Assembly: GCA_047967505.1 (NCBI GenBank) | Contig: CM106538.1 | DNA from: Dipteris shenzhenensis | Taxonomy: Eukaryota | Reading direction: 5' to 3' (one strand) | DNA: 64,000 bases | Shown: one piece after another, positions 3,966 to 62,389 of the stretch | Layout: each line of letters opens with the position of its first letter | Numbering within the stretch: the stretch's first letter is position 1 | Program-made: the position numbers and the translations under genes | The notes under the pieces: generated by a model | What the model was told of the DNA's origin: nothing | What the model saw: only the letters and a program-made list of their open reading frames with translations | The model's database searches: none

Positions 3966-4033
3966 TATATATACATACATTTCAGATGTCATTATTTGGA
4001 GAAACGGAGAGAGAGAGTGGAAGTAATGTCTGA
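3161..4033 (+). CDS. Copia gag polyprotein (truncated)
   Basis: KFDGTNFSLWK, UBN2-type LMKRLFELQMKEG..HLNEF, LLCSLPSSW and the CYHCGKKGHMKKDC zinc knuckle; the last ~25 aa are non-homologous. Confidence 0.85.
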   Translation: MGFCSICIMASSSMSEKEFFNIKKFDGTNFSLWKEQIRDVLIQKKQIKPLAGFEAKPANMSEDDWNELDVLSKSTIRLHLAELVYFTVVNEQTTEDLWKKLCATYEKETTSNKVYLMKRLFELQMKEGVSIASHLNEFNIIFSQLHAQKMNFDAETKAIFLLCSLPSSWDTFRTAVSNSAPGGVLKFDDVVGSLFAEEIRRKSMDGNKKDAALNVQRGRSQFRGKSQERGKSRSKSRACNIECYHCGKKGHMKKDCYKLKREQKDKKKIYIHTFQMSLFGETERESGSNV

Positions 4034-22300: not shown

Positions 22301-24230
22301 CGAATGTGCACAAATTGGGAATTTCGCATGCCCATCCACCTTTAAAATCTCTAATGGACATGAATCTTTGTGAGGAAAAAGAAATTTGGCAAATTAACAA
22401 CCATGCAAAGTTGCACGTCCATCTAACACTTGACCATTCCATAACTATTTGCAAATGGATTTTGTTACACCTATACACCACACATGTGCACAAATTGGGA
22501 ATTTTGCATACCCATCCACCCAAATGATCTCCGATGGACATGAAACTTTGGTAGAACACAAAAATCAATCACCCATATGGTCTCTAATGACATGAAAATT
22601 TATCGAGAGGAAAAATTTGTTCTAGGTTAAGACTAGTGCAAAGTTGCTTTCCCATCTGACTCTTGACCATGATGGTCCACATTTGGGATTTTTTCGACTA
22701 TACAAGATAGATGTGCAGAAATTGAAAATTTAGCATGCTTATCCACCTAAATGATCTCCGATGGATATGAAACTTTGCAAGCACACAAGAAATAGTCCAA
22801 TTAATACCGATGCAATGTTGCATTCCCATTTGACGTATGACCATTCCATGATGGTCCAAGGCTCCGATGGACATGAAACTTTGGTAGAACACAAAAATCA
22901 ATCACCCATATGGTCTCTAATGACATGAAAATTTATCGAGAGGAAAAATTTGTTCTAGGTTAAGACTAGTGCAAAGTTGCTTTCCCATTTGACTCTTGAC
23001 CATCCCATGATGGTCCACATTTGGGATTTTTTTGACTATACAAGATAGATGTGCAGAAATTGAAAATTTAGCATGCTTATCCACCTAAATGATCTCCGAT
23101 GGATATGAAACTTTGCAAGCACACAAGAAATAGTCCAATTAATACCGATGCAATGTTGCATTCCCATTTGACGTATGACCATTCCATGATGGTCCAAGGT
23201 TGTAATTTTTTTGCACTTATGCATGACACATGTGCACAAATAGGAAATTTTGCATGCCCATTAACCCAAAGGTCTCCGACCAACATGAAGCTTTGCAAGG
23301 ATACTAAAATTAATCAAATTATTACCCATGCAAAGTTGCATGGCCATCTAACATGTTGACATTCCATGTCAAACCATGAATGATTTTTTTGTACCTACAC
23401 ACCACACATGCACAAATTAGAAATTTCACATGCTGATCAACCCAAATAGTCTCTGATGGACATGAAACTTTGTGAGGACACAAAAATTAATCAAATAAAA
23501 TCCAGTGCAAAGTTGAATGGCCATCCTAACCATTCCATGACAATACATCATTGCAATTTTTTTACACCTATGCATCGTGCAATTGCCCAAATTGGATAAT
23601 TTGCATGCCCATCCACCCCAAATGGTCTCTGATCAATATGTATCTTGTGAGGATACAAAAGTTAGTCAAATTAGGACCCATGAAAAGTTGCATGTTCATA
23701 TGACACTTGACCATTCCATGATGGTCCACGAATGTTTTGGCACCTATGCACTGCGCATGTGCACAAATTGGGAGTTTTGCATACCCATCCACCCAAATGG
23801 TCTCCAATGGGCATGAACCTTTGTGAGAAAAAAAAACTAAGAGAATTAATACCCATGCAAAGTTGCATGCCCATCTGACAGTTAACCATTCCATGACACT
23901 CCACGAAGGGATTTTTTTGCACCACAAATTGGGAATCTCGCATGCCCATCCACCCAAATGTCTCCAGTTGACATAAAACTTTGAGATTAAAAAAAATAGA
24001 GTTGCGTGTACATCTAACATGTGACCATTCCATGTCGGTCCACAATTCTGACCTTTTGCATCTATACACCATTCATGTGCACAAAGTGGGAATTTTGAAT
24101 GCCCATCGACCCAAATAGTCCCGGACGGAAATAAAACCTTCCGAGTAGGAAAAATTAGTTAGTTTGAGACCCGTGCAAAATTTCATTTCCATTTACCATC
24201 CCATGTTGGTTCACGAATGCATTTTTAGGC
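19310..24230. repeat. ~180-bp satellite-like tandem array (~27 diverged units)
   Basis: Unit ...gtgcacaaattgggaattttgcatgcccatccacccaaa...gacatgaaactttg...ttgaccattccatgatggtcc recurs at ~180-bp spacing (e.g. 20556, 20737, 20916, 21096). Confidence 0.95.
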
Positions 24231-24289: not shown

Positions 24290-27200
24290 TAAAATATGAA
24301 TTCTAGTTTAGAGAGCAGGTTGGTGCATCCAGGAATGTGGCTGGCCTAAAAATTAGAGGACGAGGGAGGTAATCAGACATCCAAGCTGATCCAAGGAAGT
24401 CCCAACCAAGCTTGAAGGCTCAAAGAAAGCAGTTATAATGCATTCAAATTGAGCGAGGTGAAGGGGAGCATCAATCCCAATTCTCATGCCTAGAATCCGC
24501 TTCTAAGAGGTGAAGGAGAGACACAATGCTAGGACTCGTATGGGATTGCCACTAGTATTTGATACGTTGATAGTCGATTTCAAAAACAAGACTTGGAATA
24601 CAAGATTGTTGTCATATACTATGATAAAGTCCTCATCCTTTAAGGGGGAAAACCTATGTATAGATGATATCCAAATGGAGTCAGGAGCCATGAAGGACAC
24701 CTTGCTAGAGAATCTGATTTGGGATTTGATTGTCTCAAAGGTAGGCTGAATGTCAACAACCCCTAAACCTCCTTGAATGTTAGGCATGGTGCAAAAATCC
24801 CACTTAACTTAAGGTATCCTAGAGCTACCACCCCAAAGGAAGAATCTACACTTAGAGATCAACTGAGACAAGCCCTTGCCTGCTAGGGTGCCAACATGAC
24901 AAATAGAAGATGATGATAGGGTATAAACAATGTTTAAGGACAATCCTCCTGCTAGCTAAGTTAGCTTGCGAACCCTTCCACTTCTCCAATTTAGAATACC
25001 TATTCATGAACCCAATCCCAACTATCTTTCATATTGATCTCAAATCCCATAGTGATTCCCAAAAGTTTGAACATCTCGCCATGAGATAATGGGTGGCCAC
25101 CAAGAGCATCCAGATAGGGCTGGGGCTGGCCACTGAGGGTAGTGTACCCATTTTGGTGTGGTTAATGAGTGACCCAGAAGTGTAGAAAATCTCCGGACAC
25201 TCCATCACAGCAGTGACATCTTTTGTAGTGTTCCTAGCATGGGAGTCAAGCTTATGTCATCAACACATTGTTGCCTAACTAGCTGCTTACCATAGGGTAG
25301 CCCAATGCCCCTAATAGTGCCTTATTGGCTTCCCTCAAAGAGGAGCCACCATAAGGCATCAGCAACTATGGCAAAAAGGAGAGGGTCAATAGGACAACCT
25401 TGTCTAATGGAATGCTTCAAAGGGAAAGCAGAGGACATGACCCCATTTAAACAAACCTTAGCAGAAGCATTAAAGAGGAGAAGTTTGATAAACATACTCT
25501 AGGCCTTGGAGAGACTGGATTAGGAAATCCCAGTCTAATCTATCATAGGCTTTGTCAAAATCCACTTTGATAAAGCAAATATCGTGTTTGGTGTCTCCAG
25601 CATACTCACAGCACAAGTTAATGATGGCTTCCAGGAGGTGGCATCCCTTAATGAAACCTTTTTGCTCATGCAAAATCCAAGCGTCCATCTTAGAATTCAG
25701 AAGAGACAGATGGGTGGGCAAGGGCACCATGCTAAAGGGCGCTGAACTCCTACAAACCCCCCGCTGGTAGCAAATAGACAGAAGGGGGTTCCTATGGTCT
25801 CCACTCCTCCCCCGTCCTCTCAGGAAGCTCTTGGTCCTATACTGAACAACTTGCCTAAAAGAGAGGCCATCAAAGTTGGGTACCTAGCTGGGAAGAGCAA
25901 CATTGTTGCCCCTATTAACCCATTTAATGTGTTATCTGACTCCCCATCAGAGGACATGATTATTGAGAAGCCCAAGGGTGAGATGGAGGAGGGTTGGTCT
26001 AAATAATTTTACGACGAGGTCTTAAAAGGTGATGATATGCACTCGGATGAGGCAGAGTTGAAAGAGAAGTTTCCTCCCCACCCCAGTGTTGAGAAAGACA
26101 TCATTGTCAAAGGGAAAGTGGTGGCCCAACTCCAATCCAAAAGAAGGCTCTCCCATGCTAAGGACTATTCAACCTTGACTAAAAGCCCTAACCCCAGGAA
26201 AGAAACATGCTAAGTAAGCCCATGTCTTTCCTCACACATAATGTGTGGATTAATAGACCCCACTAGAGGGGGGTGTTGGCTAGGTGTTGAGAGAAATCCC
26301 ATCTCTTCCTTCTGATAAGATTAAATACTTCCTTGGCTGGTATGTCCATTTTACCTGTCCACCAGTTCCTCAAACAAACCAGTGTCTCCCTGAGTCTAGC
26401 CTTTTCCAAATTCAAGAGGTCAGCTTTAGCTTGTAGCAGTTTTGCTTGAGCACTAATGCGTCTTAATGACATCTTTAATCTTGTCCATTCTTACGGCCCT
26501 TATCCTGGCCCAACTTTTCCTTGCACTCTTCAATATCTATTTAGTTTCCCTTTCGCATTTTGCCAAAAGGACGAGGCATCTTATCCCACATCTCAGTAAT
26601 CCGTGTTGGACAGAGACTTAAACCAGAAAAGGCTGGGGTTAAGCCTTGAACCACGATGAGGTTTTCCTTCCTTGTTTAAAATCACAGCTCAACATACTAG
26701 CTTGTGATGCGAAAACTGAGAGGGTAGAAAACATTTGAATCCCAACCTTGGAGGTGCTGAGTAAGAGATGGTGAGAAATATAAATTTTGTCTAATCTAGC
26801 TTCTTGTTTGCAATCCCTAATTTGTCTGTTAGACCAAGTGTACTCCCTTATGGAGTCAGGGTCTAAAAGTTGCATGGCATCGTTTAAGCCCTCCCAGGTG
26901 TACAGTTCAGCGCCCTTTAGCATGGTGCCCTTGCCCACCCTTAAGGCTAACGTCTTGGTCAGTATTTTGTAACTACAGTTCGACATCATTAGAGGTCGCC
27001 AATTCTTGAGCATGTCTGTTTTGGGGATAGCTTGATAACTCCACCATCAGATGATCAAGTAGTTGATGGGTGTGAAGGCTCTCCTACCAAACAGCATGGA
27101 GCCATGGACCTACCACCTCCCAAAGTGTTTTATAAAAGTCGATAGGGAGCCCGTCTTCCCCATGAGTTATCCCAGCTTTCATTGATTTAACAACCTCCTT

Positions 27201-30200
27201 GAACCCTTTTAAGAAAGGGGGGCTTCAAGGTATGATTGATCAAAAGGTTATGAACCCGGACCTTCCTGGCCCTCTTGCAATTTTCTCGAGCTTGCCAAAT
27301 CTCATGAGTTACCTAGAGAGAGGGTGAGAGTAACTTCTGAAAATGATTAGAGATGTTTTAGTCTCACTCTTAGCCCATTGATTGTCAAACTTCCAAAAGG
27401 GGGATGTCACTTCAAGAAGTTAAGTGAACCAAGAATGATCTTGAGTACAGGCTCAAGTGGATTGATAATAGAAAGAAATGGTTCTTTATTGATCATGAGA
27501 CAAGAAAGGAAGGTACTACTATTCGGGTACTCTCACATTATGAACAAATTTTTAAGAAGGTTGTTGCAGATGTAGACCACAGATGGATTGCACTACACTA
27601 CATTTGGAATGGGGTTCCTTTTTGGGTTGTCTCAGTTAATGCTCCTACCAATTCTCAAGACCGAGTGACCACTTGGCAGCCGATGGATGTGTTAGATGGA
27701 AATGCCTTTCTAATGGTGGGAGACTTTAACATGGTTGAATTCAGAAGAGACAGATGGGTGGGCAAGGGCACCATGCTAAAGGGCGCTGAACTGCACACCT
27801 GGGAGGGCTTAAACGATGCCATGCAACTTTTAGACCCTGACTCCATGGGGGAGTACACTTGGTCTAACAAACAAATTAGGGATTGCAAACAAGAAGCTAG
27901 ATTAGACAAAATTTATATTTCTCACCATCTCTTACTCAGCACCTCCAAGGTTGGGATTCAAATGTTTTCTACCCTCTCAGTTTTCGCATCACAAGCTAGT
28001 ATGTTGAGCTGTGATTTTAAACAAGGAAGGAAAACCTCATCGTGGTTCAAGGCTTAACCCCAGCCTTTTCTGGTTTAAGTCTCTGTCCAACACGGATTAC
28101 TGAGATGTGGGATAAGATGCCTCGTCCTTTTGGCAAAATGCGAAAGGGAAACTAAATAGATATTGAAGAGTGCAAGGAAAAGTTGGGCCAGGATAAGGGC
28201 CCTAAGAATGGACAAGATTAAAGATGTCATTAAGACGCATTAGTGCTCAAGCAAAACTGCTACAAGCTAAAGCTGACCTCTTGAAGTTGGAAAAGGCTAG
28301 ACTCAGGGAGACACTGGTTTGTTTGAGGAACTGGTGGACAGGTAAAATGGACATACCAGCCAAGGAAGTATTTAATCTTATCAGAAGGAAGAGATGGGAT
28401 TTCTCTCAACACCTAGCCAACACCCCCCTCTAGTGGGGTCTATTAATCCACACATTATGTGTGAGGAAAGACATGGGCTTACTTAGCATGTTTCTTTCCT
28501 GGGGTTAGGGCTTTTAGTCAAGGTTGAATAGTCCTTAGCATGGGAGAGCCTTCTTTTGGATTGGAGTTGGGCCACTACTTTCCCTTTGACAATGATGTCT
28601 TTCTCAACACTGGGGTGGGGAGGAAACTTCTCTTTCAACTCTGCCTCATCCGAGTGCATATCATCACCTTTTAAGACCTCGTCGTAAAATTATTTAGACC
28701 AACCCTCCTCCATCTCACCCTTGGGCTTCTCAATAATCATGTCCTCTGATGGGGAGTCAGATAACACATTAAATGGGTTAATAGGGGCAACAATGTTGCT
28801 CTTCCCAGCTAGGTACCCAACTTTGATGGCCTCTCTTTTAGGCAAGTTGTTCAGTATAGGACCAAGAGCTTCCTGAGAGGACGGGGGAGGAGTGGAGACC
28901 ATAGGAACCCCCTTCTGTCTATTTGCTACCAGCGGGGGGTTTGTAGGAGTTTTTAGCTTGGCTTTCTTAAGTGGGCAATTTTTAAGTATATGGCTAGAGA
29001 GGCCACATAGAAAACATGAGTTAGGGTGATTCTTGTACATAAGAGGTTGTTCCCTAATCGATGTCACCTCTCTTATTAAGAAAGAGCAAATTTTTAGGGA
29101 GATCCTCTATTGGGTCAAAGCTAAACGCAAACCTAAGGGTTGCCCCTTGGATTGATTAACTATTCATGCTCAACGCTCAATACTTTGCCCAAAGACCCAT
29201 ACAATGAAGCTGCTTGATTGAATAGAGAAAGGTTAAATTTGGAAGAATGGCCCAAACTGGAAGTTTGGTAGACCTAGGCATCTTTGTGTTGAAGAAAGGT
29301 GACCAAGAGAGGTTGGCTCCTTATGGTCTAGAGACCATGCTGGAGGACCTTAGAGGATGAAATACCCTCTCTGTAAGAAGCGTACATTAATAACACCGAG
29401 TCCTTCTTCACCCAGCTATTTTGGAACCACCCTTCAGGGCGAGGGCCATGCAGGAATCCCACGAGTGCATGAGCAAAAAGAAAATCATCAGCATCTTCGA
29501 GATCCTCTTCATTGATGACTGTGGCAACAGCCTTACCTGCTTGATGAGTCTTCTGCGAGCTTGCAGTTGGGATGCCCTTTGCATGAGCCGCTTGAAAATC
29601 CTCAGGTGTTCTCTCTCCTCTGTTGGAATTGTTTGTCCCTATTGGTTGATTTTTGACCTTGCATGTCGGTGTGCCATTCTTTTCTTCCAGCTTCTCAGCA
29701 CCGACATGTAAACCTTCTCTCTGTTTCTCTTGTCTCTCTTCTAGTCTGGTAGCTGCTACTTTTGGGGATGCAGAAGAAGCCTCCCTTTGTCTGCTATAGC
29801 GCCCCCACGTAAGAGGTGTAGGGTTCAACACTCTGCCAAGGAAGGATGTTCTACCAAATCTTGCACTGCCACGTCCACCAGTTCCTTCTTGACTTCGTCT
29901 TAGGGACCAGGAGGGAATCGAGGAAAGGGGGCTCCATAGTTGTTGCTTTCGACTGGGGAAGGAGACAATGTTTGCTATAGCTCAAGGCGCTGGTCGGGAG
30001 GTGGGAACTTGGAAAGATAAAAAATGTCGATATTAGATCTCTCCCAGTTGCAAGGGACGTAGGGCAAACGAAAGGCATTAGAAGAGGGAGTGGGAGTCAC
30101 ATCAAAGGCTAGATTTGTGTGCACAAGTTCTTGGGGGGAGAGTTGGAGAGGACAGGCTGTCCCGTCAGAGTCGACCTCCATTTCCCTCCACTCGTGGATA
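24290..30200 (-). mobile_element. Rearranged L1-like LINE with an internal inversion and an inverted duplication
   Basis: ORF1 with CFLCGLSSHILKNC on minus (28480-29830); endonuclease on plus (VGDFN, RLDKIY; 27400-28480); RT on minus (NWRPL..YKILTK, EQKGFIKG, KVDFDKAYDRLDW, QGCP, GGLG). Confidence 0.88.
25747..26940. repeat. Inverted near-identical copy of 27756-28949
   Basis: ORFs 25794-26006 and 26263-26472 mirror 28690-29067 and 28224-28433 on the opposite strand with only a few substitutions. Confidence 0.95.
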
Positions 30201-45419: not shown

Positions 45420-45957
45420 TTTGGGGAAACTTTAGCACTCGTATGCATCCATGCAAATACAATGCTATCTATAGGCTCCCAACATTGAGGATCTTTTGTG
45501 TTCCATAGCCAAAATTTATCTGAACACCTTGATTACACTTCTTCATCTATAGCATGTTGGTGAATGCAAACAGGTGCCCAATATTATATAGGTATCTTTT
45601 TGTAATTCTCTAACATCCTATTTACATCTACATCACTTTGTACAACACCTAGCCATATTGGGTAGATTGCGTTTGATGGTCGAATAAGCACAAAATCACC
45701 AATCTTGACATCCACCATTGGCTTAAATTTATCTTTGGGTCTTTTTTGTGAAGGCCCACAATAGTGGTCATCCATTTTTTCCAACTCTTCGAAGTCATCC
45801 TTGTTATCATTGCAATAGATGTTCCTTCACTATGTGTCCTTGGCAAAAAATCTTTGAACACTCCCTTTTCCAACATATTTTGGAGTTTCTATAGCATCCA
45901 CCTTATTTTTCCAATACTCAATCATGGGTGCTATGTACTTCGTGAGCTTAGCATCTA

Positions 45958-45960
<3 letters not shown>
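45420..45960 (-). pseudogene. Fragmented ORF of probable transposon origin with a W-rich C-terminal domain
   Basis: IGDFVLIRPSNAIYPIWLGVV...YWAP...WLWN..DPQCWEPIDSIVFAW, with stops. Confidence 0.4.
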
Positions 45961-47130
<1,170 letters not shown>

Positions 47131-47609: not shown

Positions 47610-48075
47610 CACACACACACATTAGGAAAAAAGGAAACTCATTTTGGGGCCTTGTAAGAAATCCACTAGTTTCTTATTTTTCTTTGCTCCAAAATCTACA
47701 AAAATGAACTAGCATTAAATGCTCCTATCATATTCTCTCTTTAAAGTGAGTTTCGTGTCATCTTGACTCATGCCAGCAATAGAGTTTTGTGTCGGAATCC
47801 CATAACTAACGATTAAGAATCTTTGTTTTTCAAAATTGTAAACCTTCGCATGACAAGATAAACATGGACTTATCGCGATAAATATGGACTTATCATTGTT
47901 GACTTATGTAGGCCATAAGATTTCGTGGTCAAAAACTCATAACTAACCTTTAAGAAATTTTATTTTTTTTAATTTTTAAACATCCCCACGAAAGATTAAC
48001 ATGGATTTATCACGGCAAGTCCATTGCTAACACTTTGTTTTATAAAAGTTGATAAGGGTGTGAAGCAACGGGAAA

Positions 48076-50801
48076 ATGTTGCTCAAAAAAATGGCAATGT
48101 GCAACCACACCATTGAAGAACAATCCAGCAAGAAGAGACTTTACCACCTCCACATTGATTTAAAAGAAGAGTATGCACCTGTGCAAAAACGACTGAAGGG
48201 TCCACAAGCAGGTGCAATGCCAAGGGAGAACATAAGGAAAGAAGGCTTACATCATATCGATTTATGGTGTGATGGGAGCATTTACCTAAGATGTCTAATC
48301 AGTAACTTTACTCCTCCATTTTTCAATCTGACAACACTGCTGAAGTTTGTGGGGTGATGGTAATAAGGGCCAATTTGGATATGTCAAAACTCAATCTACG
48401 GCCGTGGAAATGTACAAAGGCTTTTACCAACAACAGAGATGGGAATGAAATTGCAACAGGTAGCAAAAAGCTCTAAATTGAAGGAGTAGCTACAGAAAGA
48501 AATTGAAGAACACATGATGACAAAGAAAATGTTGAGGAAAGCTAGAAGAAAAGCCACACCCTTAGGAGATAGACTTAGAAATAGCAAAATTCGTAACTTT
48601 GCAAATCTAACCTGGCAGTGGAGGATGCATGCGCAAAGTTTAGGAAGCAAGGTAAGTCTTCTTTTGCTTTTGCAATTTTGAATGCAACACAAAGACAATG
48701 ATTACTCTATGATAATAGCAATTGAGCTTGGAAAAACTCTTTTATTTGTGCTTCTTATAGGAAAATTCTTAAGCCTTGTAAAGAAAATGTTGATCCTAAT
48801 GCCCCTCTAATAAAACAAATGAAAGGTTTACTGTCAACTACAATTGCGAAAAGCATGCTAGAGGAGAAAATCTATAAAACAATCAAACACAATGTTGTGC
48901 AATAGTTTGTAGATACAAACAAAGTTGATGTGAGCATAATCCAAGGGGCACTCGATGAGGGCGGAGTGAACAGAAAACATTGCACATCCATTTTCAATGT
49001 AGTATTAATAACCTTGAAAGATTAGAGGATAAAACGGGTGTGCTCTTACCAAAGCCTACGGCAGTGTGGAAGTTAAGAGGCCTACTCAACCAACAAGTAG
49101 ATGATTATATTGAAAATTGTATGCACATTGAATGAGTGTATGAAAGTGACAAGGGAACCACTGTATATAACTCTTTTAACAATGTTTTTGTCGATCTTCA
49201 ACACGTGCAAATGAGAATGGTTGAGTTTTATGATATGGCATTTGAAGAGTGCCAAAGGTTCCTTAAATTTGTTGTGAAATTGTCAAGGAGAAAAAGATTT
49301 AATGAGTGACCATCACTCTAATGAATAGAGCTCTTGATCCCTCGATTACAATAGCAGACTCAAAACACTTCAGTGTGCAATCAGAAAAGCACATTTGCTG
49401 GCTAGGCACATTTGAGGTAAGCACACACTTGAATTGAAAGTGGTTTTTTTATAAGTATTTATTAATGTATGATTCTTTAATTGTATTTTCACTTGGCAGG
49501 TTAAGAAAAAGGACCACAAAACTCTTGATTGGGTATTCCAACACATAGAAATACCATCAATTATTAAAGATCAAGTTCAAGGAGGGTATTTGCATGTTGG
49601 TGGCAAAGGTGATTTCCAGATTGATTGGCATAGGGCAAGTGACCTCAAGACCCTCGAGTGTATGTTCAGCATAAGCAAAGTAGGTAATTCAAAATCTCCA
49701 TGCCTTTACTACAAGGAGCCAGCATATGTCGTGGATTCAAAATGGTGGAGGAAGGCACCTAACAAAGATAAGGTTGATCCCAATTTCAAAGCCGTTCTTG
49801 ATATCCCTTTGTGTAATGTACATATATGCACATTACCTGCTTTATGTCGAATCATCGAGAAGATGGTATTTTTGTATGTTGGTTTTGCCTGGAAGCTTCA
49901 TCCTAAAAAGTGAGGAAGGATGAACTTCAAGCAATCGAGAAAGTATTTTTGGGCATTGGTCTCCATGGAGGAGATGTTCATATCACAACAAATCTAGAAA
50001 AATTAAAAAATGGAACGGAAGTGCCCATCAAGCCATCTATCGGTGGAGTGAAGGTTAGAAGGTTTTAATCACAGCCACAGGGCAAGAGAAAACCAAGCAG
50101 ACAATCACGCTATGTTTCAAGAGTACAGTATGGCATTTGGAGGCACACACACAATGCAATTAAAGATCATGAAGTAGACGAAATTGCACGAACTGTTCAA
50201 ACAGAAGTATAAAGATCCTTAGACAAGCTTTTCATACTTTTTGACAAACAAACTTGGACCAAGAATGATCACCGTGCATTGGAGGAGGAGCTGAAGACTT
50301 TGGAAAGTCAATGAAAGAAGCTTGGACAACTTGCAACATACCACATTACATGGTAATAAAATTTCATTCTTTGCTTTTACTGGCATTTTCCTATGTTACC
50401 TCTTAACAATAGAATGTGACTTCTTGTTTATTGTAAATGCAACATATTATCTACAACCATTTTTCATATTTTGAAAAAAAATATGGATGCCCTACATTTC
50501 AGTCAACTCAGGGGGAATGGAGAAGTCTCATTACATAGTACAAGATGCATTTTTTTGGCATAGACAACATTTTGGAGGAGCACAGAAAGCAAATAGCCTC
50601 AAAGAAGTTTCCAATGGTTGTATGCTACAAAGGTTGCAATGTAAGAAAAAAGTGGCAACATCAAAAGTCACACTAGCATTCAAGATGGCCCAAAAAGAAA
50701 GAAGAAGGCAAAGCTTGGATAACTCAACTGCTGCACAGAGACATGCGGAATGGAGAAAATCAAAGACTTTTATGAACCACAGGTGGATAGATAGAGCTTA
50801 G
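48076..50801 (+). pseudogene. Intron-containing RAG1/Transib-like DDE transposase (decayed)
   Basis: Spliced manual translation in RAG1-core order: LKFVVKL, SVQSEKHICWLGTFE|VKKKDHKTL, ASDLKTL, SKSPCLY, ICTLxALCR, IPHYM|HIIYNH...KYG...STQG-MEKSH. Introns at 48653-48760, 49417-49499 and ~50353-50442. Confidence 0.75.
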
Positions 50802-50978: not shown

Positions 50979-53553
50979 TCAAAATAATTTGCTACACTTT
51001 GCAAGAGCTTGGAAGCTTACTAACAATATAATATCCTGCCCTAGAGCAGATCTTGCCAAGATAATAACCAAAAATATTGTAAGCAGATATTTTTTCCAAA
51101 AGAATGATCCTTTCCTTCTACTGGTTGATTTGATCACCTCTTCCAATCTTATCAAAGTGAAGGTCCCTTTGAATCTTCTTGAATGTCTCATCATCGATGT
51201 CATCGTCTCCCATACATTTCTGAGCTTCCTCAAAGCACGTGGATAGACATTCCTATGAGTTGAAGTTGTCTTCCATGCTGTGGAAAGGGTCACCCTTCTC
51301 AATGATCTCAAAATCCAAATGGCAGGATTGGACAATCAATGCCAACGTGTAATCTTCCCTCAAATCAAATATTGCTTGACTATCATGAAGAAGAATATAA
51401 TCCATATCTCCAATTTGGAAAGTGGGAAGCAATGGCATGGCACGGCCATAGCTTTCAATGTCAAGGTCTTCAATCCTTACTAGCCTATTAAGTGTGTCTG
51501 TCCTTAGTGCCACAAGGTCGAGTGCAGCAGCTTCATCTCTCTCCTTGACAAGGTCTATCACCTTCTCTTCATCCTCCTTCTCTGATACTTCTACCTCTTC
51601 TTAGAGTTCCTCTTGATCCCAGGGCCTCTCATCTACTTCCTCATGCTTTTGCATCTCTAAGCCCTCCTTAAGGTTAACATGATGGTAGTTCATGTACAAT
51701 ACAAACCCCAAACATTCGTCTAAAATTTTGCACTTTCTATTGTGCATGTTGCACTCTGCTTTAACATGCTTTGGCAAAAGCTCATACCTCTTATGAATGG
51801 AAGTCCTGAACTTATTATCTGTCAACAAATCCTTGATGTGGATGTGTGACTTATTTCCAATACAAATCCTACCCTCCCCTGTGAGCTTTTGAAAAATGTT
51901 GCATTGTTCATCAAAAAATTCAATGTGTTGGTCAACCAAATGTGAATAATCTAGCTCCTTGTTGAACATTTCATAGAAAATATGGAAATCCTACTGGGCA
52001 TTGCACTTATGAAGGAAATCAAAAAGCAACTCATCACATGATTTTGTTTGTTCTCAAAGCGATTTGGCTTGTTGGGGGCTTGCTCAACAGGATAAATCTC
52101 TTTGTTAAGCACATTTCTTAATAATTTTGTCAAGTGATATTTTAAAATCTTGAGCAAATTCTAGAGGATCAATCAACAAATTGGGTTTTTATAAAATTAT
52201 ACCTGGAATAGGTTGGTTCATGACCCAAAAATCAGAACTTGTTACCTTGGTCTCCTTCTGGAAGCTCTTATCCTTGTTTGTAAGATCACACAAAGGAAAA
52301 TTATTTCAATGGCATGAAAAACCAAAAAAGGACAGGGACATGACTAAATATGTCCTTGAGACATAAACTAGCACAATGTAATAGTAGAGAGAGTTCTTAT
52401 GATGGCAATAAATGTATCTAGGTCAAACTAATGCAAACATATGCTTGTGAAAGACCATATTCAAGATGTGTGCCCCAGAAAGTGATTTTGACTGTTGGAC
52501 AGTGCTCCAATAGTCAAAATTGCTTTCTTAAGCACATTTCAACATTTCTTTGTATCCAGATTTCATAGAGACCCCACACTTCTTAAGGACAATTAACATT
52601 GAAACACACACATTGAATGAACATACCAAGTCTAGGTTGGTCCTTGACCACATTTGGAATTTGATAGATGATATTGGAAATGTACTCATGTTGGTCTATT
52701 GGTCCTATTACCTACTATGCAAATCTCTATCTTAGGCACACTTGTGCACTAAGATTTGTTTTTGGATATTCTCTGGAGTCTTCTAAGTATGAAGTTTGTT
52801 CCAAGGGTAGTTTGTTTTGAAGTAGGAGCATCAGGTGCTTTTTCATTTGGAATTTTGGTGGTTGTATTCTCTTCAGGCTTCTAAAAGGTAGTTGGAAATT
52901 GAAACACTAGGTGAAAATATGTAGTAATAGGTAGTATGTGATCAAGAAAGTGATTTGGGATGTTCGGCATTCTCCTGAACCTCAGAATGGCTTTCTTAGG
53001 TACATTAATAAATTGTGTTATGAGGGCAGTTTATAGGGGCATCAATTTCTTAATATCTATTTATGTTGGAATCATCTATGATTGTGTTAATCAATGTTTT
53101 GAAATTTGTTTAGATACTGTTGATTTTATACATTGCTGTGTTGGCAATCATATCAATTTAATGGAATGTGAGATAAACAAATTGTGTGGGATAGAATTTC
53201 AGTAATGTGCCTAAGAAAGTGATTTGGCTTATTGGACAACTCCCAAGCCTCCAAATCGCTTTCGTAAGCATCGTTTTGCATATGTTTCTGGTTGCATATT
53301 ATGTGTTGGTTTTCTTCCTCTATAGGGACAATAGGGACTACTTTTGATTTCTGCATTGCTTGTTGTGTTGTCTCTCATATGGGTTGGACATTGGATCAAT
53401 TTGATGGATTGTGAGAGAGAAACAAGTTGTTAGGTAGAGTTTTTCATTAATGTGCTTAAGAAAGTGATTTGGCTTGTTGGACAATTCCCAACCCTTTCTT
53501 AAGCACATTTGTGCATATCCACCTGTTATAGGTTTTGTCTTGGTCAGGGCCAA
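50979..53553 (-). pseudogene. Fragmented gene of unknown function, convergent with the transposase
   Basis: Chain of minus-strand ORFs (53338-53553, 53153-53356, 51951-52157, 51601-51969, 51253-51561) with an acidic tract and repeated NKPNHFL/NKPNRF segments. Confidence 0.45.
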
Positions 53554-53604: not shown

Positions 53605-55800
53605 ATGGCAAGGGCAAACCAGACAACCATAGTGATTGGTAAGTGGCCTCATATTGCTCAAGCTGCCACTCCCCAGTTGCTAGTGCCAGTGTCTGAGGAT
53701 CTCATAAGAGGAAAGGGAAGTCCGTGCATATCCTCAAACAGGCAAAGAAGAGGAGGGTTTCTCAAAAGGTGTCAGTGCTTAGGGGGACAAGGAAGGCACA
53801 AAAGGCCATGGGACATGCAATACCAAAGGCTCCCTTTCAAAGTCTTGTGAGGGAGATCTGTAATGACAATCAATTAGGTTATAGATGGCATAGGTCTACA
53901 TTGTTGTCCCTCCAAGAGGCAGCTGAAGATTGGATGCTAGAATTCTTATGGGATTGCATGATTGTTGCTACACATAGTCATAGGGTCATCTTGAGGGTGA
54001 AGGATGTTGAGACACTTACACTTAAGATATTTTGTTATAGATATGACAAAATCCTTCATCCTTGCAATTGCGTGGACCTCAAAATGAGGGATATTCTATT
54101 TGTGCCACCAGCAAGGAAACCAAAGGATGTTGGTACAACTCTAGTGGAGGTAACACAAAACAAGGATACAAGGGGCAAGGCTGCTTATGAGGAGGCCATG
54201 ATAGAGCAGAGGGATGCTACCAACATGCAATTCATCTAAGAGACTACCCTAAGGGACATTAAAAATAATCAAAGGATAATGCATTTGGGATCAAATATTA
54301 TACTCAAGTTTCAAGATGCCACTTTTGTGAAAGACATAACACTGACCCAAGACTGTTTCAGAGCTTTGATGTCACAAGAAGGATGGGTGACTGATACAAT
54401 TATTTTTTATGTTCTCAAGTAATTGATATGCATGCTTAAGGTGATGAATATGGTTGAGTTTCTTGATTAATTGATGATATGGACTCAGTTCCTTATACAA
54501 TGCACTGAGAACAATATTTTTACCAGCATGTATAGAGGAGGGTTAAAAGAGCCGCAACAACTTGAGGTTTATGTACTTGATCCTTGCATATCTCCCTTAC
54601 TAAGAAATCCAAAGGTTCCTACAATTGATCTTGTCAAGTGGTTCAAACACTGTGACTTCAACTTGATCACTCTCATCCTATTACCTTATAACTCTGAGTA
54701 AGTGAATAATACATTTTACTTCATTTCTTCTATCATTCATTGTTGTAATGTTGACTAATGTATCTGTCTTTTTTTTGCAGCAACCATTGGAGCCTAGTGT
54801 CTATTGACCTTCAACAAAAACAAGCCTTTTGTATGAATTCTCTCTACAAAACACATAAGGACCTTGATTTGTATGTTTCCTTTTGTTAACATATCCCTAT
54901 ATAAATAAAGCTCTACATTGTTACTTCACCATTGCTAACAATAGGATTTTATCTTGTAGAGGCATAAAAAGGTTATTGGATGTCTTGGATCATTTTCCTC
55001 CAAATGTGGACCTGCGTGATATTGTTGAGATTTTTGACTTAAAGGTAAGGACATTTATGGATGTTCAATGATGTTTTTGGCCTCCTCAATTATATAAACC
55101 ATATCCTAAGGTTGTTAAGTTTGTGCACGTGCCACAAGGAGATGATCCCCATTCATGTGGGTGGAGGACAATGATCCATGCCAAGTATTTGTTAGATACT
55201 TACTTTGCAGATCCGCCACCAGACAGGGTAAGTATATAAATCTATATATTCATAATGACTAGACTTACACAAACAAACACCATTGTGAAACAAAATATAA
55301 TCTAATCTTTCATATTATTTTTCTTGATTGCAGGTTTCAGAGGATAGATTTATATCAATCTATGTCAATGGATATAGATCCATGGTCAATGTATCCCAAG
55401 GGAGACACAGAGCGAGATCTAGGGCTAGTGCTTTTGGAAGCAAGGAGACTGCTGTTGTTGTTGAAGGCAAGGAATAGGGGGCTGAGGACAATCCCAAAGT
55501 GGAAGAGGAGATTTCCAGTGAGGAACCACAGTAGCCTGATGAGCAGCATCAGCCTTCACATCAGCCTTATGAGTAGCCTCATCCTTCACATCAGCCTGAT
55601 GAGCAGCTTCATCCTTCATAGCAGCCTGATGAGTAGTCTCATCCTTCACAACAACCTGATGACTAGCTCCTACAGCCTAATGAGCAGCCTAGCCTGATCA
55701 AAAGCCTCCTTCACAGTAGCCTGATGAGCAGCCTCAGCCTCTGATCAATAGCCTCATTCACAACAGCCTGATGAGCAACTTCAGCCTCATCAGTAGCAAC
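53605..55800 (+). pseudogene. Histone H3-like / Ulp1 (C48) protease fusion gene with introns and a Q/P/E-rich tail
   Basis: MARANQT..GK tail; IPKAPFQSLVREIC...RW...LQEAAED...HSHRVIL..KDV histone fold; then GWVTDTII, NHWSLVSID (54782) and VPQGDDPHSCG (55129), separated by GT-AG introns. Confidence 0.8.
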
Positions 55801-56089: not shown

Positions 56090-58950
56090 GGGTACCTTCT
56101 TACAAGGGTTTAAAGATAGCATATGGAAAATCAATAAAATTAAACAATATTACTTGTTTCCGATGCAGAAGATATAAAACCACCAATAAAACTAAGTTCA
56201 CAAAGATATACCTCACATTCTTCTTGGTGTAGTAGTCATTCCAATTCCATCGAACAAATAAGAGAAGAGTTGGGCACATCATGTTGTCCTTGAATTTGGA
56301 AGACTCTACCCTCTTTTTCAAACATAATGGAGTTATTAAGATAACTCCGATGTAAGCTATGCCCAAGACTATATAGCCATTCTCGACCAAGCACTACATC
56401 TGTTCGGTCGAGATGCATGATTTGGAAATCCAACAAGTCTTAATAACCTTGAATATCCACCTCTACACCATGTATCATGGTGTCCCAAACTTTCTTATCA
56501 CTACCTTTTGCCAAAGAGACCACATATTTATAGGCACTTGGACTCTTAAGCAATTTTAATTCCTTAATTAACAAGTAGTTCAAGAAATTATGTGTTGCAC
56601 TATCATCAACCATCACTCTTACTCTTTGCCCCTTAATTTTTAGTAGTATGTGCAAAGTTTGACTGTTAGTGCATATGAACATTTGCACATGATGTTGAAA
56701 ATTTTCCTTAACAACACAATGATTATGCTAAAAGATCTACTGATTTTTTAGCTGAAAATTGCTAGGAAGGTTGTGATGACTAGCTCAAAATGACCCACCA
56801 AAATTATCAATGTACTAAAGAAAATTGAGTGGGACCAAGGCATTCAGCATGCCAAAAATAAAATTATAAAATATACTAACACGTTAAGATTAGTCGCATC
56901 AACTAGTGTTGTAGTTCCCTTGTAGCATCACTCAAATGCAAACTAATATATTCTTCTTTAGCTTGTATTCCTTAGCTTGTATGCAAACTAATATGTTCTT
57001 CAAATGCAAACTAATATGTTCTTCTTTAGCTTGTATTCCTTAGTATTCAATATCAATAATTTTTTCAATCTAAATGAGAGAATTTTTCAATTCAATAGAG
57101 CTAGGATAGAGGCAATAATCATGTTTAATAAACTTTGTGATACTCAAAAGAATTTCTCTAATGGTACAAGTGTGTGATTGCCCTTTATCTGATGAGTTTA
57201 AACCTATGATGCTACACGAAGTCTTTGTGCACTTACACTACATTAAATCTCCTCATTAAATCATGAGGACCAAAGGTGGGCTACCACATTTTTTTTGATA
57301 TATAGCACATGGTGCTATCCTCATGATAGACCTCTACCTTAGTGTACTTTTCAGTATTATCAAGCAGCAACACTTGCACCGCATGTACTTGTCTTTGTGG
57401 AGGTCTATTCGGGGCTTTAGCTCCCACTTGTTTATTTTTAGGGTAGAGTTCCAAGCAGCATGGTCTTTGCCCAAACATTTGAAGCAAATATTTTCTTGCC
57501 TGGCCCTTTCATAATCCTCTTTCTTCAAGAGAGGATAATTTTGTGTTTGAGGTTTCTTAGGTGGTACTTGAGGAACCTCCTTCTCAAAGTGCCCCTTCCT
57601 TTTCAAATTGGGAAATTTGTTGAACTTTGAAACAAAACTTGTTTGCTTTGAAGTTTCAGCTTTGAATTTCCCCGTCGCATTATCATATATTTGGGCAAAC
57701 TTAATGGCTTCCTCAAAGGTTTTAGGAGACTTTTTTTTCACCTGTACCTTATAAGTGTCTTTGAGACCTTTCACAAAACCCCTTATTTTTTGGAATTCAT
57801 CAATTCCCTTCAACTTAAGGACTGCCTCCCTATAGTTCGCTATGTACTGGACTAGAGTGTTTTTACCCATAGTGCAATTGTCCCAAGCCTCCCACACTCT
57901 TTCTAATTCATTTTCCGGTAATAACTCTTTTAGGAAGGCTTGTTTAAACTCAGTCCAATGTCTAGGAATTCTTTCATTTTCCCTAAGGCTCATCCACCAT
58001 TTATAGGCTTTATTTTCAAGGGAAAGACTTGCTTCCACAACTTGATTTTTAGGAGGTGTATTCCTAAGTCAATGGAAGCCTTGCCACTTTTGCAAGAACA
58101 TATTAATCGCATCTATATTATGCTCCTTTTCTTCCCCATTGAAAATTGGCGATTTCAAGTCCTTAAGGATGTTAGAGGTTTCTCTAAGTCGAGAGGTGGA
58201 CCACTCAACTTGATTAGGAGGCATCATTTATTTTTTTGTAATAGTTACCGATTGAGAATTGTCTAACTTAGTTATGGCTTTAGCTAGGGTAATCAATGTA
58301 TCACTGATAACTCCTAGTTGTGGTTGTATATTTTGCATTCAAGTTTCAAGTTTAGTGAAATTTGTATACGAAATTCCATAATCACCGGTATATGTCCTCC
58401 ATTTCCATGTTATCCTCTTGAGTTTCAATTTGTACCTCCCCATGTGTTTCCTCTCTAGTTAAAACTTTTCCTTTCCTAGCCCTTTCCTTGGCCTCTCTAG
58501 CCATATCGTCCCTTTCTGGAGTTGTCATTTTAAAGATGCATTTTTTCCTAAAAATATAAAGCAAAGCGCTTTATGTCATAGAGAAAAATATGATGCCCAC
58601 TTTCTCGGTATTTGTTCGATGGTCTTGAATTCATCTTCGCACTTTCTTCGATCCATGACTTCTCACTTTCTTTTAATTCACAATCTTTTCGATTTCGCTT
58701 CTTCCATTTCCCTCGATCTCAAACGTCAAAATCCCGCTTTCTTCTTTTGATTATGACAAGGTTCAAGAGATTGGAGAAAGGGTTGAAGAGGATCTTAGAA
58801 GCTTGGGAGAAAGAGGGAGGAAAAAAAGGACTCTAAAACCTTTGGAAAGAGAGAAGGAAAAAGCCTTAAGGAGAGAGGGGTATGAAGGAAAAGGTGACAT
58901 GGCTTTTTTCCCAAAGGTTTTTTCAACCTTTGTATGACGTGGCTCTATAC
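56090..58950 (-). mobile_element. Ty3/Gypsy gag-protease remnant
   Basis: ORF 57334-58038 retrotrans-gag (AYKWW...WTEFKQAFLKE..FVKGL, CFKCLGKDH); protease VMVDDSATHNFL and DVVLGREWL. Confidence 0.88.
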
Positions 58951-60901: not shown

Positions 60902-61008
60902 CACGTGGTCGTTCACTTTGTACAAGAACATTGTCTTCTCGTCGATGATTCATAGTGAGAAAATCTTCAAAGCATAAGGTGTCTGCTGCACACACCCAAT
61001 TTTTCTAC

Positions 61009-61257
61009 ATGAAGCGGCCTAGAGAGGAAGATCTCGTCGATTACCAGTCGCTTCAGAATGGTGATGCCAATGGTTCTGTTGGTACCCCCCCTGCTTCGGC
61101 TGGCCCCCTACCTCATTTTGCTTACGCAGACGTCGAAGACGAGGATGATAAAAATGGTGACAATGAACGCTCGGACGATCTTAAGTCAAAAGGAGTTCGC
61201 CGTAGAGATACAGAGGTCCGCCGTGACTGTCCATACCTGGACACTGTAAACCGACAG
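61009..61257 (+). CDS. USP39: U4/U6.U5 tri-snRNP-associated protein 2 (USP39/Sad1), exon 1; gene continues beyond the window
   Basis: MKRPRE... acidic tract ...EVRRDCPYLDTVNRQ, the start of the USP39 zf-UBP, followed by a GT donor at 61258. Confidence 0.88.
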
Positions 61258-62389
61258 GTATTCTCTCTTTGTGGCATTAGAGCAAGTAACTTAGAAGCGG
61301 TAGAATGTCACAATTCGAGTTCAACAGGTTGTAGATAGTGATGGTCCAGGTTGCCCTAAAGAAGCTTTATTTTGCTTTGTATTGAGTATATCTGCCCCAA
61401 TCCATTTTGCGCTTGATATAACCCCTTATATTTTTCGCTAGTTGTTCCTACCTCTTCCTCCCGAAAGCCATTACCATCAACAGCCCAGGGCAAGCTTGTT
61501 AGTAATATCAATAACTCGTTCCACGTCATGAAGCTTTTCTTGCGAACTCAATGGCAACTCAGGAGTTGAAGTCTTCTTATGTTGCTGTCCGCTCGTGTAT
61601 GCAGAACTTAAACTCTCCTTGCAGACACTTTGTGTTTAGATAAAACAATTAAATAGTTTGTCAGCAACTTATATAATTGACACATGCTTGTGCATATAGT
61701 TATTTTTCGTGGAAATCAATCTGTAGAATTTTGGGAAACCATATATCTTTGTGCCTCATCAGTCGTATAGTTCTTGCTTGCTTTCTTCAGCTTATTGATG
61801 CTCTTTCTCTAAATTGCATTGAGCAATGGAACAACAAAAGGAGAGCTCTGTGTTGTATTGTCGTGAGAGACCGGAACTAAAAGACGTGATGATGAGATGA
61901 ATCTATGGTTTTTGAATAAGGACCTAAGTTCTCTGGATAGGCATGCTTCTGCAGACATCGGAGCCATTGCATTGCTCTTACTTGAGAATAACTTTTGCAG
62001 CTGTAAATAAAATGAGGGAGTGAACCATGGGGTTAGCATGGTGGGCGTAAACAGAGCTGTAACAACTTCCTTAGCTGTAAATACAGTTAGGGTGTTAGTC
62101 TATTAGATCGTCGGCAGCCAACAGTGAACCATGGGGTTAGTATCGTAAGGCTGTGAGCTCTGTTAACTGTGATTTTGAGATTAAACTGGTTTAGAGTGTA
62201 GAATATTTGGCTAGGCTGGAAACCACATTTTAGCAGGCATTCTCAGACAATGGAAACACTGATGGTCACTTTGATATTGAATCGTGATCTCAGGCATGAG
62301 TTTTCAGGTTTAATTGATGCTTTTCCTTTTGGAGAGGGTGTTCCATCTTTTTTGAAGTTCGGATGAAAGTGTTATATGTGTGTGTGTGA

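What the first reader, a model, noticed from the sequence alone, without database searches (positions are those of the whole stretch)
53605..54030. The element's H3 has CENH3-type residues and lacks K4/K9
Seen: RW in place of H3 RF (F84), C at T107, QEAAED in place of QEAAEA, IP in place of IR, a longer basic tail (frameshift near 53670), and no Lys at the K4/K9 positions. Q68 and a canonical loop-1 length are kept. Established: F84W and T107 changes are CENH3 hallmarks. Inference: a captured CENH3-like or strongly diverged H3 that might bias the element toward particular chromatin or resist silencing marks. Post-inactivation decay could explain some of the residues.
Basis: partly seen in the sequence, partly recalled or inferred. 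Interest (0 to 1): 0.7.

Follow-up and report, generated by a model that had tools for sequence, protein, structure and literature searches.

The report
Fern transposon's histone–SUMO-protease fusion gene
A dead copy of a fern-type jumping gene carries a gene that joins a strongly diverged histone H3 to a SUMO-type protease; it is neither an ordinary nor a typical centromeric histone and may be the element's tool for loosening the host's chromatin silencing.

Summary
The listed residues are all in the window, but the H3 is only the front of a longer gene: H3-like fold, family-specific extension, then a Ulp1/C48 protease. It lies 2.8 kb behind a decayed DDE transposase with CMCT-type (EnSpm/Chapaev/Transib) motifs. 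Relatives form a large, old, conserved family; all named members are Adiantum nelumboides (fern). W84 (57 of 58 aligned rows), D98 (55) and P63 (44) are family traits. C107 (3 of 58), the long tail and the missing K4 are decay in this copy: 41 of 42 intact tails keep K4, and 12 start exactly like canonical H3. K9 is kept in only 22 of 42; K9-S10 and the K27 motif occur in 0 of 34. The family lacks four marks found in all 8 fern CENH3s (A68, longer loop 1, E87, H102). Trees place it outside plant CENH3 but do not exclude CENH3 ancestry, and they disfavour direct descent from plant H3.1 (p 0.02-0.09). It is not a CENH3; its origin is open. Best guess for function: chromatin-tethered deSUMOylase against silencing (untested). 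H3-carrying (fungal hAT) and Ulp1-carrying (plant MULE) transposons are known; I found no paper on the fusion.

The parts
48223..50789 (+). Decayed DDE transposase (several frameshifts and stops) with CMCT-type motifs: second Asp, C(2)C (second Cys changed to Tyr here), H(4)H, catalytic Glu; the first Asp region is damaged
   Evidence: tblastn of P0180 (E 9e-89) and P0306; motifs read; motif definition from PMC12730594 passages
51100..51990 (-). Broken ORF of unknown kind between the transposase and the H3 gene (may extend to about 52300); membership of the element is inferred from position only
   Evidence: no Pfam match; no match in the fetched loci
53152..53495 (.). Two ~100-bp direct repeats (83% alike) upstream of the H3 gene
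53605..53753 (+). H3-like N-terminal tail, decayed: K4 changed to N, K9 to V; frame change near 53670; TGA at 53694
53754..54030 (+). H3-like histone fold (P63, Q68, canonical loop 1, W84, D98, C107, H113, D123)
54031..54418 (+). Family-specific C-terminal extension, helical linker and start of the protease domain; premature TAA at 54237; inferred splice donor at 54419
   Evidence: extension motif in 42 of 58 rows
54513..55227 (+). Ulp1/C48 protease exons (inferred: ~54513-54697, 54781-~54868, 54960-55227) with His (54785), Asn in place of the usual Asp (54836), Gln (55135) and Cys (55156)
   Evidence: intact relative P0016 passes Pfam Peptidase_C48 at 25.6 bits against cut-off 20.7
55334..55800 (+). 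Low-complexity acidic Pro/Gln tail exon with 30-bp repeats; relatives have similar low-complexity tails

Best explanation
Shown: this is a dead copy of a gene that fuses a diverged H3-like histone fold to a Ulp1/C48-type cysteine protease. The gene family is old, many-branched and under purifying selection, and belongs to neither canonical H3 nor CENH3. Strongly inferred: it is cargo of a fern DNA transposon with a CMCT-type transposase. Inferred mechanism: in active elements the fold pairs with host H4 and is placed in or on chromatin, tethering a SUMO (or other ubiquitin-like) protease there. Its tail keeps the K4 site, which takes an activating mark, but has lost the K9-S10 and K27 contexts that take silencing marks. 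Together this would be an anti-silencing device analogous to the Ulp1-bearing VANC/KIU proteins of Arabidopsis MULEs. W84 and D98 are either convergent or inherited from a CENH3-side ancestor, but would not by themselves target centromeres. Confidence in the anatomy is about 0.9, in transposon cargo about 0.8, and in the anti-silencing function about 0.45.
For: Fusion: intact P0016 has Histone (E 2.6e-23) and Peptidase_C48 above cut-off. Its model matches nucleosomal H3 and SENP7/Ulp2 (Z 6.3-7.0, middling), and its C-terminal part matches SENP2, SENP8 and Ulp1 (E 0.001-0.01). H3 plus protease exons recur in L002, L004, L005, L006 and partly L003. His, Asn and Cys are present in the window, P0016 and 4 of these 5 loci (L003 ends before the Cys). 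Selection: over the fold and extension, 35 of 36 pairs among 9 DNA copies have pS 0.63-0.97 against pN 0.14-0.44; the close pair L006/L011 has 0.07 against 0.01. Transposon link: adjacency in the window, and the A. nelumboides gene model P0031 joins a transposase piece (62% to window 49273-49416) to the same H3 in the same order and strand. Eight contigs of one assembly hold the family. H4 binding: P0016 residues 28-160 with H4 (2+2 copies) scored 0.66, best of 3 controls 0.01; the mark was reached by 51 of 78 solved and 2 of 108 mismatched pairs, runs agreed in at least 75% of contacts, partner pLDDT at least 67. This may only reflect likeness to solved H3-H4. R83, R116, T118, H113 and D123 are kept in 49, 56, 53, 46 and 53 of 58 rows. 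Tail: K4 41 of 42, K9 22 of 42 (R in 14); K9-S10 0 of 34, and an ARK[S/T] motif beyond residue 12 in 1 of 34. Precedents: passages of PMC13317346 (KIU/VANC), PMC3538342 and PMC6710886 (fungal H3L).
Against: No terminal inverted repeat or target-site duplication was found. The transposase-H3 linkage rests on two places; the 8 family contigs hold no transposase match and are short. The protease has Asn where Ulp1/SENP has Asp, and its substrate is unknown; SENP8 (NEDD8) matches as well as SENP1/2. Residues of the H3-H3' bundle and DNA entry region are altered: C110 is L in 33 of 58, L126 is T/S/V in 49 of 57, and the R42-P43-G44 stretch is lost, so nucleosome incorporation is uncertain. Trees disfavour direct descent from plant H3.1 in three of four careful analyses at p<0.05. 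The window's copy is itself dead. No expression or function data were obtained.
Confidence: 0.5

Rival explanations
1. Captured CENH3: the fold descends from a plant CENH3, and the protein steers the element to centromeric chromatin or stabilises itself there, with the fused SUMO protease acting like SENP6/Ulp2 at kinetochores.
For: W84 and D98 are shared with all 9 green-plant CENH3s in my set and all 8 fern CENH3s (read by eye). Family plus green-plant CENH3 is never rejected (p-AU 0.45, 0.35, 0.47, 0.32), whereas family plus H3.1 is disfavoured. SENP6/Ulp2 sustain CENP-A chromatin (PMC7659725 passages).
Against: Q68 is in 41 of 58 rows, canonical loop 1 in 45 of 58, E87 in 0 of 58 and H102 in 0 of 58, whereas all 8 fern CENH3s have A68, a loop one residue longer, E87 and H102. 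The N-terminus is H3-like (12 of 42 exact for nine residues); none of the 6 fern CENH3 starts given begins so. Plant CENH3 forms its own clade without the family (99/94). The fold is equidistant, about 42%, from H3 and CENH3. W84 also occurs in 23 of 59 other diverged H3s, 14 of them with Q68 (the set was chosen by likeness to the query and may hold CENH3s).
Confidence: 0.17
2. The fold is an H4- or chaperone-binding decoy, not a nucleosome subunit. It sequesters H4 or histone chaperones, or opens nucleosomes at donor or target sites, as a transposition accessory, with the protease acting on the transposase or repair factors.
For: Changed tetramer and DNA-entry residues; a bulky C-terminal extension directly after helix 3 and a predicted continuous N-helix; the H4 interface is retained in the model.
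Against: H113, D123, R83, R116 and T118 are retained. A conserved K4 epitope is easier to explain on chromatin.
Confidence: 0.2
3. Passive transduplication: host H3 and Ulp1 fragments were picked up and drift without function.
For: The window copy is dead. In several Mycosphaerellaceae fungi, transposon H3 copies are all inactivated (PMC6710886 passages).
Against: Saturated synonymous sites with conserved protein; open first exons of 267-334 codons in L001, L002, L004, L005 and L006; near-invariant family-specific residues and catalytic His/Cys across branches about 40-50% alike.
Confidence: 0.05
4. The H3-protease gene is a fern host gene family or a separate mobile unit, and only happens to lie beside the transposase here.
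For: No element ends found. L002 and L005 have different neighbours (NIF phosphatase ORFs) that the window lacks.
Against: The same order and strand in P0031; many diverged and broken copies per assembly; similar decay of both genes in the window.
Confidence: 0.08

Closest known systems
H3L-carrying hAT elements of Pyrenophora tritici-repentis (Manning et al. 2013, PMC3538342) and Mycosphaerellaceae (Dhillon et al. 2019, PMC6710886); passages read
   Same: DNA transposon carrying an H3-like gene that matches neither H3 nor CenH3 fully, with a further ORF of unknown function; function untested.
   Different: Those are fungal hAT elements with stand-alone H3L. Here the transposase has CMCT-type motifs, the host is a fern, and the histone is fused to an extension and a C48 protease and has diversified into many conserved branches.
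Kaonashi (KIU) / Ulp1-bearing VANC proteins of Arabidopsis non-TIR MULEs (review PMC13317346; passages read)
   Same: A transposon-borne Ulp1 protease domain fused to another module, conserved, tied to anti-silencing.
   Different: There the partner is a VANC sequence-specific domain in MULEs of flowering plants; here it is a histone fold. 'Histone' and 'fern' occur 0 times in that review's main text.
Plant CENH3 (fern set in Zedek & Bures 2016, PMC5024113 supplement S2, parts 1 and 11 read)
   Same: W84 and D98; L130 is also common.
   Different: The family keeps Q68, mostly canonical loop 1, S/T87 and an H3-type N-terminus, lacks E87 and H102, and has a C-terminal extension and protease. Fern CENH3s keep T107 and mostly lack P63 (1 of 8).
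[quoted passage not shown]
   Same: [quoted passage not shown]
   Different: No Pfam or PDB match, and CA..TG ends or TSD were not found, so the superfamily is unassigned.
macroH2A (recalled, no call)
   Same: A histone fold followed by a linker and a non-histone globular domain.
   Different: Host H2A variant with a macrodomain; here an H3-type fold with a protease, transposon-borne.

Membership tests
CENH3 (plant) | Loss of Q68 (criterion recalled; A68 in 8 of 8 fern CENH3s) | tested here: not met
   Window Q; family Q in 41 of 58 rows; fern set
CENH3 (plant) | Longer loop 1 (+1 in 9 of 9 green-plant and 8 of 8 fern CENH3s) | tested here: not met
   Window canonical; family canonical in 45 of 58, +1 in 9, +8 in 4
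CENH3 (plant) | F84 replaced by W | tested here: met
   57 of 58 rows; also 23 of 59 other diverged H3s
CENH3 (plant) | T107 replaced (criterion recalled) | tested here: inconclusive
   Non-T in 50 of 58 rows, C in only 3; fern CENH3s keep T in 8 of 8, so it does not diagnose here
CENH3 (plant) | Plant CENH3 residues in the targeting domain: D98, E87, H102 | tested here: not met
   D98 55 of 58, but E87 0 of 58 and H102 0 of 58; all three present in 8 of 8 fern CENH3s
CENH3 (plant) | N-terminal tail unlike H3 | tested here: inconclusive
   First nine residues H3-like (K4 41 of 42, exact in 12 of 42); beyond residue 10 divergent
CENH3 (plant) | Groups within the plant CENH3 clade | tested here: inconclusive
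   Best trees place it outside, but AU tests do not reject grouping (p 0.06-0.48); no fern CENH3 was in the trees
CENH3 (plant) | Centromeric localisation | not testable with these tools
   No genome held; needs ChIP or imaging
Canonical H3 (H3.1/H3.3) | Near-invariant fold and tail with K9-S10, K27 and K36 motifs | tested here: not met
   Fold median 42% identical to plant H3.1; K9-S10 0 of 34; ARK[S/T] beyond residue 12 in 1 of 34; GVK[KR] in 2 of 34
Ulp1/SENP proteases (C48) | Pfam Peptidase_C48 above cut-off | tested here: met
   P0016: 25.6 against 20.7 bits; the window's broken pieces alone give no hit
Ulp1/SENP proteases (C48) | Catalytic His and Cys with oxyanion Gln | tested here: met
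   Window, P0016, L002, L004, L005, L006
Ulp1/SENP proteases (C48) | Catalytic Asp of the His-Asp-Cys triad | tested here: not met
   Asn at the aligned place in the window, P0016 and L002-L006
Ulp1/SENP proteases (C48) | SUMO-cleaving activity | not testable with these tools
   Needs an assay
CMCT DNA transposons | DDE with C(2)C and H(3-4)H motifs | tested here: met
   Motifs located in P0306 and conserved in alignment A3; read by motif, not by profile
CMCT DNA transposons | Profile or structural match to EnSpm, Transib or RAG1 | tested here: inconclusive
   No PDB sequence match; model pLDDT 43.6, fold search uninformative; Atlas lead to Plavaka/Transposase_21
CMCT DNA transposons | CA..TG terminal inverted repeats and 2-5-bp TSD | tested here: inconclusive
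   No convincing repeat in a decayed single copy
Fungal H3L hAT elements | hAT transposase | tested here: not met
   No hAT Pfam family on 12 transposase relatives; motifs are CMCT-type
KIU/VANC-Ulp1 MULEs | MULE transposase and VANC domain fused to Ulp1 | tested here: not met
   The partner domain is a histone fold; no MULE Pfam on the transposase relatives

The most novel reading that the evidence does not exclude
Fern CMCT-type transposons encode a true nucleosomal H3 variant with its own enzyme attached. It is loaded with host H4, keeps K4 but cannot carry the K9/K27 silencing code, and strips SUMO from neighbouring silencing (or, if CENH3-derived, kinetochore) proteins. This would be a mobile element that rewrites host chromatin by supplying a catalytic histone.
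Probability: 0.3. Interest if true: 0.85.

Novelty: new variant of a known kind. Interest (0 to 1): 0.62.

Why it matters
What transposon-borne histones and transposon-borne Ulp1 domains do is open in both known cases (PMC3538342, PMC13317346 passages). Here the two sit in one conserved protein, with intact relatives on record (MCO5585592.1, L002), so the question can be tested directly. Does a transposon histone enter chromatin, and does its protease counter silencing? It also matters for annotation: fern genomes hold many such H3-like models that could be mistaken for CENH3 or for H3 variants.

Tried and rejected
No genome is held for the window, so copy number, a within-genome comparison and centromere mapping could not be done. 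A word-based protein search with the window protein found nothing among 385 candidates; the HMMER search did. Sequencing runs: none was listed. Viral contigs: 50 pattern matches, none confirmed. The alignment search was swamped by canonical H3 gene models and added 8 family rows, none named. The transposase model was too poor (pLDDT 43.6) for its fold search (RAG at rank 16, E 3.1, meaningless); PDB sequence searches gave nothing. TIR searches gave an 11-bp shared word at 47650/56107 scoring below shuffles, and a 19-bp match at 47006/56705 only slightly above them; I rejected both as unproven. A fast LG+G4 comparison tied the H3.1 and CENH3 placements (-0.78), but it was a poor search (lnL -3768 against -3743), and the simulation in the same call was badly designed because the fixed trees differed throughout; one search is not used. 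My first K4 count was circular and was redone. The two stops at 54420 and 54468 first read as disablements lie in an inferred intron. The middle ORF remains unidentified. The Atlas gave only C48 clusters under 0.8 for P0016. Ten literature searches (listings only) showed no paper on an H3-Ulp1 fusion or a fern histone-carrying transposon; Repbase and most subscription journals are not covered. PMC11687628: only its list of supplements was seen.

Full report
Observation. The residues are as described. From the ATG at 53605 the frame reads about 22 codons collinear with the family start and changes near 53670; a TGA lies at 53694. The fold matches Pfam Histone at E 2.8e-17 and solved H3 and H3/CENP-A chimeras at E ~1e-12. 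In H3 numbering it has P63, Q68, canonical loop 1, W84, D98 and C107. Positions 4 and 9 are N and V, and the tail is about 50 codons.

The gene is longer than the finding. The frame continues past 54030 through a conserved extension and linker (stop at 54237) into exons with the His, Gln and Cys motifs of Ulp1/C48 proteases. A HMMER search of 1.84 billion representatives gave 3104 hits at E<=0.001, with the best 150 listed. From these I picked by eye 43 rows of a distinct family with a usable fold; fragments lacking the fold were left out. I added 8 rows, 6 loci and the window, 58 rows in all; some are near-duplicates (L005 and P0008, L001 and P0185). Of 19 family proteins looked up, 6 carry a name, all Adiantum nelumboides; the window's fern origin is inferred from this alone. 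P0016 is an intact fusion with Histone and Peptidase_C48 above cut-off. Its model (pLDDT 65.5) matches nucleosomal H3 and SENP7/Ulp2. Loci L002, L004, L005 and L006 show the same H3 and protease exons. All have Asn where SENP has the catalytic Asp.

Context. A decayed transposase lies at 48223-50789 on the same strand. Its 12 relatives have no Pfam or PDB assignment. They carry DDE, C(2)C and H(4)H motifs, which PMC12730594 (passages) gives as marks of the CMCT clade; the Atlas points to Plavaka and Transposase_21 clusters as a lead. An A. nelumboides gene model, P0031, joins a piece of this transposase to the same H3 in the same order. No termini were found, and none of the 8 short family contigs reaches a transposase. 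Cargo status therefore rests on two places.

Family trait or decay. W84 57 of 58, D98 55, P63 44, Q68 41, canonical loop 1 45; at 107, S 18, A 15, T 8, C 3. Of 64 rows examined, 42 have a tail start: K4 in 41, K9 in 22 (R in 14), and exactly the nine canonical residues in 12. Among 34 tails aligned with a fold the median length is 42, K9-S10 occurs in 0, and an ARK[S/T] motif beyond residue 12 in 1. The window's four changes at positions 3, 4, 7 and 8 are each one base from the commonest family residue. So 'no K4', C107 and the long tail are this copy's state, whereas W84, D98, P63 and the loss of the K9-S10 and K27 contexts are real. Synonymous sites are saturated while the protein is kept: 35 of 36 pairs have pS 0.63-0.97 and pN 0.14-0.44.

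Is it CENH3? I read the 8 fern CENH3s in supplement S2 of PMC5024113 by eye (main text not read). All 8 have A68, a loop 1 one residue longer, W84, E87, D98, H102 and T107; P63 occurs in 1. The family shares W84 and D98 and lacks the other four diagnostic marks (E87 0 of 58, H102 0 of 58). W84 also appears in 23 of 59 other diverged H3s in the hit list, and W84 with D98, Q68 and a canonical loop in 2. The fold is equally far, about 42%, from H3 and CENH3. Trees on 93 columns make the family one clade (99/94 with 67 rows; 100/99 with 36 rows) outside green-plant CENH3 (99/94). Against my first expectation, AU tests disfavour family plus plant H3.1: p 0.021, then 0.025 with five trait columns dropped, 0.024 with the N-terminus added, and 0.090 under LG+G4. 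They do not reject family plus green-plant CENH3 (0.32-0.47), plus angiosperm CENH3 (0.11-0.48), or plus streptophyte CENH3 (0.057). The stem is long, the columns are few and no fern CENH3 was in the trees, so attraction and convergence cannot be excluded. Verdict: not a member of CENH3 by tested features. Ancestry is unresolved between canonical H3 with convergence (about 0.45), a CENH3-side or chimeric origin (about 0.3) and a third H3 lineage brought in with the element (about 0.25); these odds are my judgement.

How it may work (inference). P0016 residues 28-160 with H4 from P0043 (2+2 copies) scored 0.66, best of 3 controls 0.01. The mark was reached by 51 of 78 solved and 2 of 108 mismatched pairs; runs agree in at least 75% of contacts; partner pLDDT is at least 67. 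This shows likeness to H3-H4, not binding in a cell, and it was not the window's copy. H113, D123, R83, R116 and T118 are kept, but C110, L126 and the RPG stretch are changed, so nucleosome entry is plausible but unsure. A chromatin-tethered deSUMOylase whose tail keeps K4 and lacks the K9/K27 contexts fits an anti-silencing role, as for the Ulp1-bearing VANC/KIU proteins (PMC13317346 passages). A centromeric role has a precedent in SENP6/Ulp2 (PMC7659725 passages) but lacks the targeting-domain residues.

Known and new. H3-like genes in DNA transposons are known from fungal hAT elements and were likewise described as neither H3 nor CenH3 (PMC3538342, PMC6710886; passages). Ulp1 domains are known from plant MULEs. 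Unchecked notes of this scan mention an H3 in a Naegleria RAG1-like element and an H3-tail/protease fusion in an animal IS3EU element. Ten paper searches showed no report of a full H3 fold fused to Ulp1 or of such elements in ferns; Repbase was not searchable. The general CENH3 criteria (Q68, loop 1, F84, T107) and the macroH2A comparison are recalled, not from a call. Verdict: a new variant of a known kind, interest 0.62.

Noticed in passing
L002:3206-4390 and L005:2808-3368 (+): Downstream of the H3-protease gene lie NIF/FCP1-like phosphatase ORFs (two in L002, one in L005; Pfam NIF E 1e-14 to 1e-17), absent from the window. These may be further cargo of some branches.
   Followed up: partly
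L005:3658-4533 (-) and L002:4701-4844 (-): A converging ORF shared by the two loci whose end looks ubiquitin-like by eye; no Pfam hit.
   Followed up: partly
window 54836; L002-L006; P0016: The protease has Asn in place of the catalytic Asp in every copy seen, a His-Asn-Cys arrangement unusual for C48.
   Followed up: partly
L006:248-1114; P0052, P0064, P0099: One branch of the family has an 8-residue insertion in loop 1.
   Followed up: no
window 19345-24200: Tandem array of about 180-bp units, roughly 70% alike; no match elsewhere in the window or in the loci.
   Followed up: partly
window 25745-26940 and 27756-28951: 1196-bp inverted repeat, 99% complementary, 815 bp apart; an ORF there has a weak endonuclease match (E 0.023). 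Recent inversion or assembly artefact.
   Followed up: no
window 45938-47086: Diverged repeats of several hundred bases upstream of the transposase; possibly subterminal, not shown.
   Followed up: partly
window 57337-58068 (-), 3158-4030 (+), 6227-7318 (-): Gypsy-type gag, Copia-type gag and a WRKY exon. The Gypsy element directly follows the H3-protease gene and may hide the element's right end.
   Followed up: no
P0161 (MCO5566857.1): Gene model joining the H3-protease to a retrotransposon aspartic protease, probably a nested insertion.
   Followed up: no
window 61000-61260 (+): An exon that by eye resembles the start of a spliceosomal USP39/Sad1-type gene (recalled; not tested).
   Followed up: no
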